Shown piece after piece: positions 53,143 through 58,330 of a stretch of DNA of 64,000 nucleotides. The translations under genes and the position numbers were made by a program. The stretch is from Candidatus Curtissbacteria bacterium (GTDB lineage Bacteria; Patescibacteriota; Microgenomatia; Curtissbacterales; GWA2-41-24), in contig JACPEV010000006.1 in assembly GCA_016183325.1 (NCBI GenBank), forward strand, positions 5,883 to 69,882, written 5' to 3'. Under the pieces are notes generated by a model, which was not told where the DNA came from, searched no databases, and worked only from the letters and a program-made list of their open reading frames with translations. Within the stretch, counting starts at the first letter, position 1, and each line of letters opens with the position of its first letter.

Positions 53143-53279
53143 CTAGCCTCAGTGATTACCGCCTCACATGTCCACAATGGTGGAGACAACCTTTCTAGCA
53201 TTTGCAGCGTCCAGTTGTGATAATTGTCCTGAAGGTTAATCAACGCAACAAGAGGACCGGTATCTAAAATTGTCTTCAT
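53143..53279 (-). pseudogene. Truncated PIN-toxin gene. First 45 codons only, near-identical to the 5' end of 57810-58205.
   Basis: MKTILDTGPLVALINLQDNYHNWTLQMLERLSPPLWTCEAVITEAS-stop. Homology ends where GGAGTCGAAGGGCTAA (MITE motif) abuts. Confidence 0.6.
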
Positions 53280-53473
53280 CCCCGTCTTCTACTGCCAATG
53301 TCGCGAAGATATTTTTTATTTACAGATAAATCAGACGGCCGTCTTAACGGTTGCAAATGCACCTTAAGTGCCTCACGCACAATACGCCCTTTTGAACGAC
53401 TGGTTTTGCGCGATTCTTCTTCTAAAGCAGCGGTCGTTGCCGGATCAAGCCTAATTGTGATTGTTTGATTCAT
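53276..53473 (-). CDS. Ribbon-helix-helix (CopG-type) antitoxin, the intact copy.
   Basis: MNQTITIRLDPATTAALEEESRKTSRSKGRIVREAL, 65 aa. Its stop overlaps the ATG of the truncated PIN gene. Confidence 0.6.
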   Translation of the reverse strand: MNQTITIRLDPATTAALEEESRKTSRSKGRIVREALKVHLQPLRRPSDLSVNKKYLRDIGSRRRG

Positions 53474-53645
53474 AATAAATTGGTAACTCTTACAAAGTCG
53501 GTGGGGCCTCTCTTTTTCAAGATGATTTTGAGGTTATATTAAGAACAAACTGGTTCGCCAAGTGGGACGATTCCGGCCTAACTAATGCTTTTCGCTCGCT
53601 CAGAATGAGATTGACCAAATTCAAACAATACTTTAAGCTAAAACT

Positions 53646-53837
53646 GTGAGCAAAAAAAGGAAAATATCAATTAAAAAATATCTCTTTCTCGCCCTTCTTG
53701 CGATAATTGCCTATCTTATCTATGCGTTTATTTGGTATCAAAAAAATACTAGTTATAAGCCAGAACTTTCAAAAGTCACGGATCAAGAAATAATCGAAGA
53801 CCTACAAAGATTAGTCGATCAAAAAAACCAAAAATAA
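53646..53837 (+). CDS. Hypothetical small membrane protein.
   Basis: 63-aa ORF with one TM helix and a GTG start. Confidence 0.25.
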   Translation: MSKKRKISIKKYLFLALLAIIAYLIYAFIWYQKNTSYKPELSKVTDQEIIEDLQRLVDQKNQK

Positions 53838-53840
53838 TAA

Positions 53841-55448
53841 TCAAAAAACGGCTTGAGATTTCTTCGTTATCAAATCATCAGAATCTTTTACTGTTACCGT
53901 CACCACAGCATCCACACATTCTCCTGGCGTATTGTAGCGCCATTCTATTTGTGAACCATTTAGCGTACCTGCAAAATAACCACAGTTGATACTCCAAGTA
54001 TAAGTAAGCTGCCCACCTTCCGGATCACGAGCCTGCGCTTGCAGTAAATAACGGTGAGGAGTTTCCTCGTAAGAACCGTGCAGTTGGCTATTGTCAACCC
54101 GATCTATAACCGGTGCCTTACCACCAGCTGGTGCTTTTTTGGCCTCATCGACCAACGATTTTTTATCTGCTTTCAGATATTCAAAATCGCCACTTGTTAT
54201 CTCGGAAGGGTTCCCGTCACCGTCAACAACGGCTAAGGTGACCTTTTGACTACCTGCTTTAATTTTCCCCCCAGTTGTCTCCCCCTTCCAACTGACTGCA
54301 AAGGTTTTCCTATACGGCAGCTTGAAAGACCCTTGGTTTTCTACCAAATCAAAGTTAGACTTGCCATCGTAAATTTGACCAGCCTCATCAATAATGCTCG
54401 GCCCGTTCTCGCTGCCAACTGTCAATTTAATCTTGACTGCGCGAGTTCTGTTTTCTAGAACCGTAAAATTAATTTTCGTGCCTTGTTCATCAAACTTGTT
54501 TGGCGCAAAAAAAAGATCCTCGGCAATCGGTGGCAGTTTTTTGGAAATCACTTGCAGTTGGCCTGCTGTATTGGCAATCGCCGTATTAAATACAAAAGTT
54601 ACCAGCAGGCTTTCCTTGGACCCAAGCACCTTTGCCCCTTTGCCAAAGTTATTGCCACCAGCACCATAGCGACCCCAAGTGCTAAAACTATTATTTTTTT
54701 GCCAGTACTGATCCCAATAAGAATCACTATCCAAATACTTTTTGACGATATCTCTTGTCGCCATCATATAAACATCAACAGAAGACAAAAGAATCGGCTT
54801 ATTGGCCAAAATTCTGATTTGTTTTTTGGCTGCCATGTTCTCAACAACTTGCTCGAATAAATCATCACCAACAGTATCAATAAGACTTATCCCAGGAGGA
54901 ATCCTGTTGTTTTTATAAGTCGGTTGGGCATCACTCCTTGATGATTTGCCAGTCCCAAAATACTCTTCGCTCCCCCTGCCGTGAGGGGCAATACGCACAT
55001 GTGCCGGTACCGTTGCGTCTTCTGTTAAATGTAACAAAACACCAATTCGATGATAAGCCTCTTTGAATTTTTTATTTTTATAATCTGCCAAAACTTGCTT
55101 CCAGTGCAGATCTGGCGCGCCAAACCAGGCAAATTCATTTTGTCCTCCTCCGACTTTGGCATCAATAGCTAGTTTGTCAGACCCTTGATGAGACATTGCC
55201 TCGTCAGAATCACCCATAAAAATCTCTGCCTTCAAATCCCCTTTCACCAAATCAGGATAATCGTTGATTGCAATATTCCCAACAGAATAAGCTAAATTAG
55301 TAATTTCCGAATGGGTATCTTGGGATAATTTATATGAAAATCCAAGGAGGTCAACACTTACCTCGCTGTGGTAAGCAAAAACCGGAGCAGCTTCCAAAAA
55401 AATTGCCACCAGTACAGTTGCAATCAAATAAAGAAATCTTTTACCCAT
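53841..55448 (-). CDS. Secreted zinc-dependent phospholipase C / P1-nuclease-superfamily-like protein with a C-terminal Ig/PKD-like domain.
   Basis: Signal peptide, then HLTEDATVPAH fitting the H-x3-D-x3-P-x-H zinc motif of the PLC/P1 nuclease superfamily. Beta-rich C-terminal domain. The assignment is tentative. Confidence 0.35.
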   Translation of the reverse strand: MGKRFLYLIATVLVAIFLEAAPVFAYHSEVSVDLLGFSYKLSQDTHSEITNLAYSVGNIAINDYPDLVKGDLKAEIFMGDSDEAMSHQGSDKLAIDAKVGGGQNEFAWFGAPDLHWKQVLADYKNKKFKEAYHRIGVLLHLTEDATVPAHVRIAPHGRGSEEYFGTGKSSRSDAQPTYKNNRIPPGISLIDTVGDDLFEQVVENMAAKKQIRILANKPILLSSVDVYMMATRDIVKKYLDSDSYWDQYWQKNNSFSTWGRYGAGGNNFGKGAKVLGSKESLLVTFVFNTAIANTAGQLQVISKKLPPIAEDLFFAPNKFDEQGTKINFTVLENRTRAVKIKLTVGSENGPSIIDEAGQIYDGKSNFDLVENQGSFKLPYRKTFAVSWKGETTGGKIKAGSQKVTLAVVDGDGNPSEITSGDFEYLKADKKSLVDEAKKAPAGGKAPVIDRVDNSQLHGSYEETPHRYLLQAQARDPEGGQLTYTWSINCGYFAGTLNGSQIEWRYNTPGECVDAVVTVTVKDSDDLITKKSQAVF

Positions 55449-55537
55449 ACTTTCAGTCTAGCAATCTGGGGAAAATTAGACAAAATCGAGGCTGCCCCAC
55501 TTGCGGTTTTGCATCTTTATTGTTTTCATTTTATCAT

Positions 55538-56885: not shown

Positions 56886-57413
56886 TTGCGCATCTACCTA
56901 ATTTGACTTAAAAACTCTGCCGGAGCAACAATTTGTATTCGGTTGTACCCACCCAATGTCAATAGATCCTTGTCTCCTGTTATCAGATAGTTACACTTGC
57001 CGACTACTGCAGTTTCCAGAACTTTATTATCGTCAGGATCTCTTAGATTAAAATCTCTACCCTGTAAAGGAACGATTTGAGAGATGAACTACCACGACTT
57101 AACAGTCGTGGTATCCTCAGGCTACGCCTTCGGCGAGTACGTAATTGTTCAATTCACCCACGGGTAAAAACCCGTGGTACTCTTGAACAATTATAGAAGA
57201 AATATAAGAAACCGTGCCATTTGCAGCATAAAGTGGGGTATCAAAATCAGAAACTAACTTTTCTTTTACTTCTTCAAGGATGAAGTCAGAGATTAGAGAT
57301 ACAATTTTTTGATCTTCAATTAAGTTTACTATCTTTGCTGGTTTTCCAGAAAAGTAGAGTGCGGAGAGCCAAACATTGGTATCATTTACCACTCTTGGAA
57401 TTTTTGGTACCAC
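56886..57413 (-). pseudogene. PIN-domain toxin gene (TIGR00305 type) split by insertion of the 110-bp MITE.
   Basis: The N-terminal half (MVPKIPRVVNDTNVWLSALYFSGKPAKIVNLIEDQKIVSLISDFILEEVKEK...) lies to the right of the MITE. The C-terminal half (DPDDNKVLETAVVGKCNYLITGDKDLLTL...) continues in frame-shifted form to its left (56886-57085). Confidence 0.6.
57086..57196 (+). mobile_element. 110-bp structured repeat element (MITE-like), copy B, inserted into a PIN-toxin gene.
   Basis: Near-identical to 45454-45563. Flanked on both sides by halves of one PIN ORF. Confidence 0.75.
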
Positions 57414-57651
57414 TTCTGCCTCTTTCCACCGCTTCTAAAATATCCTTTTCCGCCAAACCTTTATTTTTGGCGTAAGACCTAAATGGAGCTGCCAAAATTT
57501 CCCATGAAAGTTTACCTTTCTCAAAAAGAAGGTACGTTCTAACTGCGGACCGAATAAATTCAGAACGGGAACTGAATTTCCCTTCGGATACCTGTTTTTC
57601 CATTTCCGCAGCTAAATTTTTCGGCAGCGAGATAGTAGTTGTAAACTGCAT
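57382..57651 (-). CDS. Ribbon-helix-helix antitoxin (ParD/CopG-like) of the disrupted PIN module.
   Basis: MQFTTTISLPKNLAAEMEKQVSEGKFSSRSEFIRSAVRTYL. ATG at 57649-57651. Confidence 0.55.
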   Translation of the reverse strand: MQFTTTISLPKNLAAEMEKQVSEGKFSSRSEFIRSAVRTYLLFEKGKLSWEILAAPFRSYAKNKGLAEKDILEAVERGRSGTKNSKSGK

Positions 57652-57764
57652 AACTATATTAAATATTAACAAAAAGTAACATAAGTATCAAGGGGCTAAA
57701 ATGTTTGATACCAGAAGCCATCGGTTCTGAGTCCTAAGCAATGTCGAAGGGTCGAAGGGCTAAA

Positions 57765-57793
57765 AACATATGCTTTTAGAATTTAGAAGTCAA
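57765..57793 (-). promoter_or_regulatory. Predicted sigma-70-type promoter (TTGACT, 17 bp, TATGTT) for the antitoxin/PIN operon at 57651.
   Basis: Minus-strand TTTTTGACTTCTAAATTCTAAAAGCATATGTT. It is part of the conserved TTTTTGACTTCTAAATTCC motif that occurs four times in the window. Confidence 0.45.
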
Positions 57794-57809
57794 AAAAGAA
57801 AACTTACAT

Positions 57810-58205
57810 CTAGGGTGCAAGCAAAGGAATTACTTCGCGCCCATTTCTCCGATAAAAAGAAAAGTCTCGCTTATCCAGCGTAAAAACCTGGCAATTTCTA
57901 AAAAGTTCGCTCATCCGCACAAGACAGGCATCAGCAAGATCCATACGATCTTTGTAATGCGCAAGCAGCTTTGCGACTGCCTCCGACTGTTCGGCCAAAG
58001 ATAATCCTATCTGCAGATTGCCTTCGGAGAGCATCGATAATATAGCCTGACCTTTACCAGTTAAATAACTAGCCTCAGTAATTACCGCCTCACATGTCCA
58101 CAATGGTGGAGACAACCTTTCCAGTATTTGCAGCGTCCAGTTGTGATAATTGTCCTGAAGGTTAATCAACGCAACAAGAGGACCGGTATCTAAAATTGTC
58201 TTCAT
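57810..58205 (-). CDS. PIN-domain toxin (VapC-like), the intact copy.
   Basis: MKTILDTGPLVALINLQDNYHNW... 131 aa. Its 5' 135 nt are duplicated at 53143-53279. Confidence 0.65.
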   Translation of the reverse strand: MKTILDTGPLVALINLQDNYHNWTLQILERLSPPLWTCEAVITEASYLTGKGQAILSMLSEGNLQIGLSLAEQSEAVAKLLAHYKDRMDLADACLVRMSELFRNCQVFTLDKRDFSFYRRNGREVIPLLAP

Positions 58206-58330
58206 CCCCGTCTTCTACTGCCAATGTCGCGAAGATATTTTTTATTTACAGATAAATCAGACGGCCATTCTTCTTCTAAAGCAGCCGTCGTTGCCGGATC
58301 AAGCCTAATTGTGATTGTTTGATTCATAAT
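58203..58330 (-). pseudogene. RHH antitoxin copy with an internal deletion of about 72 nt relative to 53276-53473.
   Basis: Alignment with the intact copy shows GTCTTAACGG...TTGCGCG missing between CAGACGGCC and ATTCTTCTTC. Coordinates here are +/-1 because the printed sequence and the ORF track disagree by one base around 58200. Confidence 0.5.

What the first reader, a model, noticed from the sequence alone, without database searches (positions are those of the whole stretch)
53143..58330. Reciprocally decayed duplicate PIN/RHH toxin-antitoxin loci
Locus 1 (53143-53473) keeps an intact RHH antitoxin but only the first 45 codons of the PIN toxin. Locus 2 (57810-58330) keeps the intact PIN toxin, but its antitoxin has a ~72-nt internal deletion. 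The shared segments are nearly identical, so the duplication is recent. The outcome is either a TA system split in trans over ~4.5 kb or one copy in the process of being neutralised (orphan antitoxin as anti-addiction). The truncation point in locus 1 coincides with a GTCGAAGGGC MITE motif.
Basis: seen in the sequence. Interest (0 to 1): 0.55.

Follow-up and report, generated by a model that had tools for sequence, protein, structure and literature searches.

The report
Decaying duplicate VapBC toxin-antitoxin loci
A Candidatus Curtissbacteria (CPR) genome carries two recent copies of an ordinary RHH-antitoxin/PIN-toxin (VapBC-type) operon that small deletions are eroding: one copy has lost most of the toxin, and both antitoxin genes have lost internal pieces, so this is a tidy but unsurprising snapshot of toxin-antitoxin decay.

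Summary
Locus 1 (53139-53473, minus strand) has a 65-aa RHH antitoxin and 46 codons of a PIN toxin. Locus 2 (57810-58327, minus strand) has the full 131-aa PIN toxin and a 41-aa antitoxin remnant with an in-frame 72-nt deletion. The shared DNA is 98.5% identical.

Three corrections:
- **The "intact" antitoxin is not canonical.** Every family relative examined (about 90, typically about 80 aa) has a conserved ~15-aa segment that the 65-aa protein lacks. One independent run assembly (L011) follows locus 1 at 100% identity and then continues, exactly at that breakpoint, into L-N-A-L-Q, the start of the missing segment.
- **The PIN truncation is probably an internal ~305-nt deletion.** Locus 1's left flank matches the element downstream of locus 2. 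No MITE was demonstrated.
- **The PIN junctions are not MAG-assembly artefacts.** Per-run Logan contigs reproduce the truncated-PIN junction (4 contigs) and the full-PIN context (1 contig). The two antitoxin deletion junctions are not independently covered.

The toxin is a VapC26/VapC20-like PIN (AlphaFold2 pLDDT 96.7; TM-score 0.87 to PDB 5X3T chain B) with all four catalytic acidic residues. Both antitoxins keep an identical C-terminal tail.

Best reading: ongoing erosion of a duplicated vapBC module, with the toxin still held in check through that tail. It is a new member of a known kind, of low to moderate interest.

The parts
53139..53279 (-). Locus 1 PIN-toxin remnant: codons 1-46 plus a TAG stop created at the deletion junction. 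It keeps D6 and E44 but lacks D92 and D111.
   Evidence: The junction is reproduced at 100% identity in Logan contigs L006-L009.
53276..53473 (-). Locus 1 antitoxin, 65 aa: intact RHH domain (residues ~1-43), a 6-aa hinge and the conserved C-terminal tail PSDLSVNKKYLRDIGSRRRG. It lacks the family's ~15-aa middle segment (xNALxALxxYAGxIx).
   Evidence: Pfam RHH_1 E=4.2e-6; family alignments; NCBI MBI2327093.1.
53341..53412 (-). 72-nt segment present in locus 1 and deleted in locus 2. It encodes the end of RHH helix 1 and all of helix 2. Its low-coordinate edge (53341|53340) is also where Logan contig L011 diverges into the ancestral linker.
53112..53142 (+). Remnant of the element found downstream of the operon (ATATCAGAAGCC..CGAAGGAGTCGAAGGGCTAA). 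It matches 57708-57763 of locus 2. GTCGAAGGGC lies at 53130-53139.
   Evidence: It scores best of all motif copies; the upstream 12-mer matches 11/12, and 50 of 2000 shuffles score as well.
57810..58205 (-). Locus 2 PIN toxin, full length (131 aa), VapC26/VapC20-like, with acidic residues D6, E44, D92 and D111.
   Evidence: 4854 homologs of 131-134 aa; invariant columns; PDB 5X3T VapC26 E=2.3e-8; AlphaFold2 pLDDT 96.7; Foldseek TM-score 0.87; context confirmed by Logan contig L012.
58202..58327 (-). Locus 2 antitoxin remnant, 41 aa: the beta-strand and half of helix 1, then W, then the same C-terminal tail as locus 1. There is no RHH fold, and it overlaps the toxin start by 4 nt.
   Evidence: no Pfam hit; not in protein collections.
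57708..57767 (+). Element downstream of locus 2: ATACCAGAAGCC...CTGAG...GTCGAAGGGTCGAAGGGCTAAAAAC. In locus 1 the deletion begins directly after GGGCTAA.
58326..58362 (-). Promoter-like sites upstream of locus 2. TTGACA-17-TATTAT (11/12) has a -10 hexamer that overlaps the ATG. TTGCAA-17-TACAAT ends 6 nt before the ATG. Locus 1 has no such site within ~240 nt upstream, and homology between the loci ends ~12-18 nt upstream of the ATG.
   Evidence: consensus matches only
58406..58444 (+). Second copy of the CGAAGG-type motif (GTCGAAGGGAGCAAATTCGAAGTATCGAAGGATAAAAAC) on the other side of locus 2, in direct orientation to the copy at 57743-57767.

Best explanation
Two paralogous copies of a VapBC-type type II toxin-antitoxin operon (an N-terminal RHH antitoxin gene overlapping a PIN RNase toxin gene by 4 nt) sit 4.9 kb apart in a repeat-rich, rearrangement-prone stretch of a Candidatus Curtissbacteria chromosome. 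Short deletions are eroding both.

Inferred order of events:
1. An ~80-aa ancestral antitoxin lost 45 nt (15 aa). The undeleted allele still exists in the sampled population.
2. A unit of about 630 nt (operon plus ~100 nt downstream) was duplicated.
3. Locus 1 lost ~305 nt: PIN codons 47-131 and the downstream spacer, with TAA microhomology. It became an orphan antitoxin.
4. Locus 2 lost a further 72 nt, which destroyed the RHH fold.

How it works now (inferred):
- The single remaining toxin, a VapC26/VapC20-like Mg2+-dependent RNase, is held in check by the conserved C-terminal tail (PSDLSVNKKYLRDIGSRRRG).
- Both antitoxin versions make this tail. The 41-aa peptide supplies it in cis, translationally coupled to the toxin. 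The 65-aa protein supplies it in trans.
- DNA binding, and therefore autoregulation, is lost at locus 2.
- No dedicated new function is needed. This is neutral or nearly neutral decay, constrained only by the need to keep the tail in frame.
For: Shown:
- Duplication and deletions.
- Both antitoxin deletions are in frame and preserve the ATGA overlap.
- Family architecture is an RHH antitoxin of ~80 aa plus a PIN of ~133 aa.
- None of about 90 relatives lacks the middle segment.
- An ancestral-type allele (…PLR-LNALQ) is seen in Logan contig L011 in the locus 1 context.
- The toxin has a PIN fold and four acidic residues.
- The truncated-PIN and full-PIN contexts each recur at 100% identity in per-run assemblies.
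- The neighbourhood shows the same style of decay: a deacetylase pseudogene with a 278-nt deletion between 14-nt direct repeats, and a second truncated PIN toxin.

From the literature:
- In VapBC26 the N-terminal RHH binds DNA, and the flexible C-terminal region with helix alpha3 (residues 60-65 of 71) blocks the toxin active site (PMC5737657).
- Orphan antitoxins are mostly remnants of degraded toxin-antitoxin systems (PMC7354431).
Against: - No expression, toxicity or binding data exist.
- Both antitoxins lack a segment that is conserved in every relative, so the tail alone may not neutralise the toxin.
- Locus 1 has no recognisable promoter nearby.
- The best promoter-like site at locus 2 overlaps the antitoxin start codon.
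- The 4 SNPs between the copies (3 synonymous) look older than the 45-nt deletion polymorphism, whose flank is 100% identical over 2.3 kb. This does not fit the simple order of events.
- The junctions at 53340/53341 and 58266/58267 rest on the MAG assembly alone.
- Homology of the locus 1 left flank to the locus 2 downstream element is only moderately supported.
Confidence: 0.55

Rival explanations
1. Both loci are dead. The surviving PIN gene is silent or no longer harmful, so neither antitoxin matters and all four ORFs are pseudogenes drifting toward loss.
For: - Both antitoxins lack a universally conserved part of the toxin-binding region.
- PGAP did not call the 41-aa or 46-aa ORFs as proteins.
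- Adjacent genes are visibly decaying: the deacetylase pseudogene and a truncated PIN_3 toxin.
- Promoter evidence is weak or awkward.
Against: - The PIN ORF is full length, with every invariant family residue including D6, E44, D92 and D111, and gives a confident PIN model.
- Both antitoxin deletions are in frame and keep the coupling to the toxin. Chance predicts this only about 1 time in 9.
- 3 of the 4 SNPs between the copies are synonymous.
Confidence: 0.25
2. True split system through duplication-degeneration-complementation. The locus 2 peptide cannot neutralise the toxin, so the locus 1 antitoxin is now the only antidote, acting in trans. This locks both loci into mutual retention. The alternative version is that locus 1 acts as an anti-addiction guard that permits eventual loss of locus 2.
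For: - The tails are identical, so cross-recognition is certain in principle.
- Locus 1 keeps the RHH dimerisation and DNA-binding domain that locus 2 lost.
- Anti-addiction by chromosomal antitoxins is documented for CcdA (PMC7354431).
Against: - The locus 1 antitoxin is itself a deletion variant.
- Locus 1 has no nearby promoter-like site.
- The two loci share no upstream operator region, because homology ends ~12-18 nt before the ATG.
- The in-frame retention of the tail at locus 2 argues that the cis peptide still matters.
Confidence: 0.12
3. Composite or artefactual assembly. The contig merges alleles from co-existing strains, so no single cell carries this exact pair of damaged loci.
For: - Logan contig L011 proves allele heterogeneity exactly at the locus 1 antitoxin breakpoint.
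- The short per-run contigs break inside the repeats, so linkage of the two loci is not shown.
- The antitoxin junctions are not independently covered.
Against: - The distinct flanks and the diagnostic SNP (53154 G versus 58080 A) are reproduced at 100% identity in per-run assemblies of several runs.
- Novel junction sequences cannot be created by a de Bruijn assembler without reads that contain them (inference).
- The copies differ by SNPs rather than being collapsed.
Confidence: 0.1

Closest known systems
Mycobacterium tuberculosis VapBC26 (Rv0581/Rv0582; PDB 5X3T) and VapC20
   Same: - Same operon layout, with an RHH antitoxin upstream of a PIN toxin.
- It is the best sequence hit (E=2.3e-8) and the best structural hit (TM-score 0.87, rmsd 2.1 A) for the toxin.
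- The four acidic active-site residues align: D4/E42/D97/D116 with D6/E44/D92/D111.
- The antitoxin has an N-terminal RHH and a C-terminal toxin-blocking region.
   Different: - Only 25% identity, from a CPR bacterium.
- The family antitoxin has its own conserved motif (YAGxxxGPxDLSxNKKYL…RR).
- Here both antitoxin copies carry internal deletions and one toxin copy is truncated.
- A 23S sarcin-ricin-loop target is only an inference from similarity to VapC26 and VapC20.
Orphan antitoxins as remnants of degraded type II TA systems (e.g. Klebsiella pneumoniae survey, PMC7192599; reviewed in PMC7354431)
   Same: Locus 1 is an antitoxin gene next to a recognisable toxin stub. This is the pattern reported for most orphan antitoxins.
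   Different: Here the intact paralogous toxin is still present 4.9 kb away in the same contig. An undeleted antitoxin allele is also visible in the same population, so the decay is caught in progress.
Anti-addiction by chromosomal antitoxins (Erwinia chrysanthemi CcdA versus F-plasmid CcdB; as summarised in PMC7354431)
   Same: A stand-alone antitoxin could neutralise a homologous toxin encoded elsewhere.
   Different: - No plasmid or mobile element is involved; there is no integrase or transposase nearby.
- No functional data exist.
- The antitoxin here is itself damaged.
FitAB (Neisseria gonorrhoeae; PDB 2BSQ/2H1C), the classic RHH-PIN pair
   Same: It combines an RHH antitoxin with a PIN toxin, and the PIN fold is matched at lower rank in the fold search.
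   Different: It is a much more distant match (TM-score ~0.54, 13-16% identity) and belongs to a different antitoxin C-terminal family.

Membership tests
VapBC (type II TA, PIN toxin) | Toxin adopts the PIN-domain fold | tested here: met
   - AlphaFold2 model from 34 sequences: pLDDT 96.7, pTM 0.90.
- Foldseek top hits are VapC26 (5x3t_B, TM-score 0.87) and VapC20.
- Profile against PDB gives E=2.3e-8.
- Many homologs carry PF01850, although the protein itself gets no Pfam hit.
VapBC (type II TA, PIN toxin) | Conserved acidic active-site residues (3-4 Asp/Glu) | tested here: met
   - D6, E44, D92 and D111 align to VapC26 D4, E42, D97 and D116.
- D6, D92 and D111 are invariant and E44 is at least 90% conserved in 34 homologs.
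- The locus 1 fragment keeps only D6 and E44.
VapBC (type II TA, PIN toxin) | Small antitoxin gene immediately upstream, co-oriented and overlapping or adjacent | tested here: met
   A 4-nt overlap is present at both loci and in relatives L001-L005. About 75 further loci have an upstream ORF that ends at the toxin start.
VapBC (type II TA, PIN toxin) | Antitoxin N-terminal DNA-binding domain (here RHH) | tested here: inconclusive
   - Locus 1: met (Pfam RHH_1 E=4.2e-6, residues 5-37).
- Locus 2: not met. Residues 21-45 are deleted and there is no Pfam hit.
VapBC (type II TA, PIN toxin) | [quoted passage not shown] | tested here: not met
   Both copies keep the tail (PxDLSxNKKYLxxxGxxRR) but lack the ~15-aa segment (…ALxxYAGxI…) found in every relative examined.
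VapBC (type II TA, PIN toxin) | Toxin inhibits growth (RNase activity) and the antitoxin neutralises it | not testable with these tools
   This needs expression and rescue assays and RNase assays.
   - The 15 motif copies share only about 20 nt (CTGAGCGWAGTCGAAGGG), and their flanks show no common bounded unit.
- The repeat search found no inverted repeat pairs around either locus.
- This is better described as a short REP-like motif.
Orphan antitoxin / anti-addiction module | Antitoxin gene without a functional adjacent toxin | tested here: met
   Locus 1: the adjacent PIN is cut to 46 of 131 codons.
Orphan antitoxin / anti-addiction module | The antitoxin neutralises a homologous toxin encoded elsewhere | not testable with these tools
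   Only the identical tail sequence suggests this is possible.

The most novel reading that the evidence does not exclude
The 41-aa locus 2 product may be a naturally minimised antitoxin with no RHH domain. It would still neutralise its PIN toxin through about 20 C-terminal residues, while the copy able to bind DNA survives only at locus 1. That would be duplication-degeneration-complementation of a toxin-antitoxin module, tying two loci into mutual dependence. A further possibility is that the three events sharing the breakpoint 53341|53340 reflect a sequence-specific deletion hotspot in the antitoxin gene. The locus 1 junction forms the palindrome AGACGGCCGTCT.
Probability: 0.12. Interest if true: 0.5.

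Novelty: new member of a known kind. Interest (0 to 1): 0.25.

Why it matters
It adds a well-resolved natural example of how chromosomal toxin-antitoxin modules erode after duplication. The changes are small, in-frame deletions that spare the toxin-neutralising tail. The older allele is still segregating in the same groundwater-type CPR population.

If the 41-aa peptide proves sufficient for neutralisation, it would define the minimal antitoxin determinant for a large, uncharacterised VapBC26-like subfamily with thousands of metagenomic members. Otherwise this is ordinary genome decay and changes nothing in current understanding.

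Tried and rejected
- **Pfam and NCBIfam on the 131-aa protein.** There was no hit even at E=10. PIN membership had to be shown through homologs, a PDB profile search and a fold search.
- **Exact-protein look-ups of the PIN and the 65-aa antitoxin.** Nothing was on record. Neighbouring genes (NUDIX, the 535-aa protein, the RHH at 57382-57651) were used as anchors instead.
- **Genome-contig scans.** The PIN protein and an exact 32-nt antitoxin DNA pattern both found nothing. A scan of metagenome contigs with the same DNA pattern also found nothing. 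No syntenic relative or second assembly was obtained.
- **Word-indexed homolog search with the 65-aa antitoxin.** It gave only 3 hits. The exhaustive representative search gave 16. Neither contained a near-identical 80-aa ancestor.
- **Rfam and tRNA scans of the window.** No hits, so there is no tRNA-linked island and no known RNA family for the repeats.
- **Integron or mobile-island idea for the toxin-antitoxin cluster.** Rejected for lack of any integrase or transposase. The flanking genes are cell-envelope and housekeeping genes, and gene orientations are mixed.
- **MITE-mediated truncation.** Rejected as stated; see the membership test.
- **Palindrome-centred breakage at AGACGGCCGTCT.** The breakpoint is 2 nt off the palindrome centre, so this remains only a remark.

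Full report
**Source and setting.**
The window is from a 73-kb contig of a Candidatus Curtissbacteria (CPR) MAG. Its proteins are in NCBI as MBI2327087-103 with HYU92_ locus tags. GC content is 40.8%. The finding lies in a stretch (about 50-59 kb) with five toxin-antitoxin-like gene pairs and several decayed duplications, flanked by ordinary cell-envelope and housekeeping genes. No integrase, transposase, tRNA or Rfam family was found.

**The observation.**
- Locus 1 (L1): 53276-53473(-) encodes a 65-aa RHH protein (Pfam RHH_1, E=4.2e-6). It overlaps by 4 nt a 46-codon ORF at 53139-53279(-).
- Locus 2 (L2): 58202-58327(-) encodes 41 aa. It overlaps by 4 nt a 131-aa ORF at 57810-58205(-).
- 53140-53340 aligns to 58066-58266 with 3 mismatches in 201 nt. 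53413-53485 aligns to 58267-58339.
- The 72 nt at 53341-53412 are absent from L2. The deletion has exact breakpoints, no microhomology and is in frame. Residues 21-45 (SRKTSRSKGRIVREALKVHLQPLRR) are replaced by W, and the last 20 residues and the ATGA overlap are untouched.
- There are four SNPs in about 257 shared coding nt. Three are synonymous and one is M27I in the toxin.
- No third copy exists in the window.

**What the proteins are.**
- The 131-aa protein has no direct Pfam or NCBIfam hit. It does have 4854 homologs of 131-134 aa, many of them precomputed as PF01850 PIN.
- A profile of the family hits M. tuberculosis VapC26 (PDB 5X3T) at E=2.3e-8.
- An AlphaFold2 model (pLDDT 96.7) superposes on VapC26 at TM-score 0.87. 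The next hit is VapC20.
- D6, E44, D92 and D111 align with the VapC26 active-site residues D4, E42, D97 and D116. They are invariant or nearly invariant in the family.
- The L1 stub keeps only the first two of these residues, so it cannot be a nuclease.
- In relatives, the gene upstream is always an RHH antitoxin of about 80 aa that overlaps the toxin start.

**Correction 1: neither antitoxin is canonical.**
- Three sets of relatives were aligned: four antitoxins from relatives, 12 family representatives and about 75 further loci. Every family antitoxin has a conserved segment of about 15 aa (…NALxALxxYAGxI…) between the RHH domain and the tail (GPxDLSxNKKYLxGxGxxRR).
- The window's 65-aa protein lacks this segment. 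L2 lacks it plus 24 more residues.
- Logan contig L011 (run SRR12113428) is 100% identical to window 55704→53341. Exactly at 53341|53340 it continues with TTAATGCCTTACAA, giving …PLR-L-N-A-L-Q, where the closest relatives read RPNALQ.
- That 14-mer occurs nowhere else in the window.
- An allele that still carries the linker therefore exists in the same population, in the L1 context.
- The same nucleotide position is thus the edge of the L2 72-nt deletion, of the L1 45-nt deficit and of the allele divergence. Nested deletions cannot be distinguished from a hotspot without the full ancestral allele.

**Correction 2: the toxin truncation.**
- A gapped alignment shows that the L1 left flank (ATATCAGAAGCC–CGAAGGAGTCGAAGGGCTAA, 53112-53142) matches the element about 50-100 nt downstream of the L2 toxin (ATACCAGAAGCC…CGAAGG-GTCGAAGGGCTAA, 57708-57763).
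- This is the best match among all motif copies. The motif-free upstream part is matched as well by only 50 of 2000 shuffles, so support is moderate.
- On this reading the duplicated unit was about 630 nt. L1 then lost about 305 nt between two TAA triplets, and the TAG stop was created at the junction.
- GTCGAAGGGC is part of a short over-represented motif, CTGAGCGWAGTCGAAGGG (15 matches against 2.3 expected). A MITE structure was not found.

**Assembly check.**
Per-run Logan contigs reproduce the following at 100% identity:

| Region | Contigs | Runs |
|---|---|---|
| NUDIX gene → motif → truncated PIN, up to 53184, including the L1-specific base at 53154 | L006-L009 | 4 |
| L1 upstream flank, down to 53450 | L010 | reported in 6 samples |
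| L1 upstream flank, down to 53341 | L011 | 1 |
| RHH/PIN_3 operon → full PIN 3' part, up to 58110, with the L2-specific base | L012 | reported in 2 samples |

All of these contigs stop inside the shared repeat. They do not link the two loci and do not cover the junctions at 53340/53341 or 58266/58267.

**Mechanism.**
- In VapBC26 the N-terminal RHH binds the promoter. The flexible C-terminal region with helix alpha3 (residues 60-65 of 71) sterically blocks the toxin active site (PMC5737657).
- By analogy (inference), the basic, conserved tail retained by both antitoxin versions is the neutralising element.
- Both deletions are in frame and preserve translational coupling. This fits selection to keep the tail expressed while a functional toxin is present.
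- L2 has lost the RHH fold and so has lost autoregulation.
- L1 keeps the RHH domain but shares no upstream DNA with L2 beyond about 12-18 nt, and it has no nearby promoter-like site. L2 has a near-consensus site whose -10 hexamer overlaps the ATG. These are consensus matches only.
- I therefore favour ongoing erosion of a duplicated vapBC module in which the toxin is still neutralised (0.55). The rivals are a fully dead system (0.25), an obligate trans-split or anti-addiction arrangement (0.12) and a strain-composite assembly (0.10).

**Open inconsistency.**
L1 and L2 differ by about 1.6%. The linker-bearing allele sits in a flank that is identical over 2.3 kb. Either the duplication predates a very recent or recurrent 45-nt deletion, or L2 came from a diverged strain.

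**Comparison with known systems and verdict.**
- This is a VapBC-type module of a large, uncharacterised VapC26/VapC20-like subfamily.
- Orphan antitoxins that are remnants of degraded systems, and the anti-addiction idea, are both well documented (PMC7354431).
- The finding is real but ordinary. It is a new member of a known kind, with a neat population-level snapshot of decay.

Noticed in passing
window 45450-45564 and 57083-57197: A 115-nt repeat (94% identical) folds into three very stable hairpins (RNA MFE -53.8 kcal/mol, z = -9.1) and has no Rfam match. The copy at 57083-57197 replaces the 3' half of a PIN_3 toxin gene. It could be a structured small mobile element or a small RNA.
   Followed up: partly
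window 57117-57672 (-): This is another damaged toxin-antitoxin pair directly beside locus 2. The RHH antitoxin (57382-57672) looks intact, but the PIN_3 toxin (57117-57413, 98 aa) matches only positions 1-53 of the 115-position profile before it runs into the 115-nt repeat.
   Followed up: partly
window 50062-51304 vs 56305-56832 and 58545-59026: The operon encoding a polysaccharide deacetylase and a 126-aa protein is duplicated in two separated pieces (91% and 92-98% identity). The deacetylase copy at 58640-58979 is a pseudogene with a 278-nt frameshifting deletion between two 14-nt direct repeats (TTGCCAGGCAACTT at 50257 and 50535).
   Followed up: partly
window 50084, 50796, 56327, 58562, 58996 (+): A 23-nt element, GAGACRGAGGAGGAGTTTRAGCC, occurs five times, only within 50-59 kb (0 expected). 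It brackets the deacetylase gene and its copies like cassette boundaries. It may mediate the local rearrangements.
   Followed up: partly
window 56843, 57765, 59460, 60169: A 32-nt repeat (…TTTAGAATTTAGAAGTCAAAAA) reads on the minus strand as a TTGACT-17-TATGTT promoter-like site. Three of the four copies lie just upstream of minus-strand genes, including the RHH/PIN_3 operon.
   Followed up: no
window-wide, e.g. 21035, 21216, 36660/36683, 40325, 45330, 57743-57760, 58406: A GC-rich motif, CTGAGCGWAGTCGAAGGG, is over-represented in this 41% GC genome (15 matches against 2.3 expected for the 10-mer). At 36660-36692 it forms a hairpin. Direct copies flank locus 2 on both sides. It is REP-like, and its function is unknown.
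   Followed up: partly
Logan contig L011 positions 2365-2378 (SRR12113428), at window 53341|53340: This is a population variant of the locus 1 antitoxin that still carries the family's linker (…PLR-LNALQ…). Only 14 nt of it were recovered.
   Followed up: partly
window 51965-58327: Five toxin-antitoxin-like pairs lie within 6.4 kb: Phd/PIN, RHH/PIN stub, AbrB-MazE/PIN, RHH/PIN_3 stub and RHH remnant/PIN. This is a dense cluster for a small CPR genome, and four of the five toxins are PIN-type on the same strand.
   Followed up: partly
window 22622-22670 and 40143-40191: A 49-nt GC-rich inverted repeat (94% complementary) has arms 17.5 kb apart. It could bound an invertible or mobile segment.
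   Followed up: no
window 6515-6666, 8237-8466, 10458-10675: Three copies of a 90-230-nt AT-rich intergenic repeat (75-92% identical) lie upstream of consecutive minus-strand genes.
   Followed up: no
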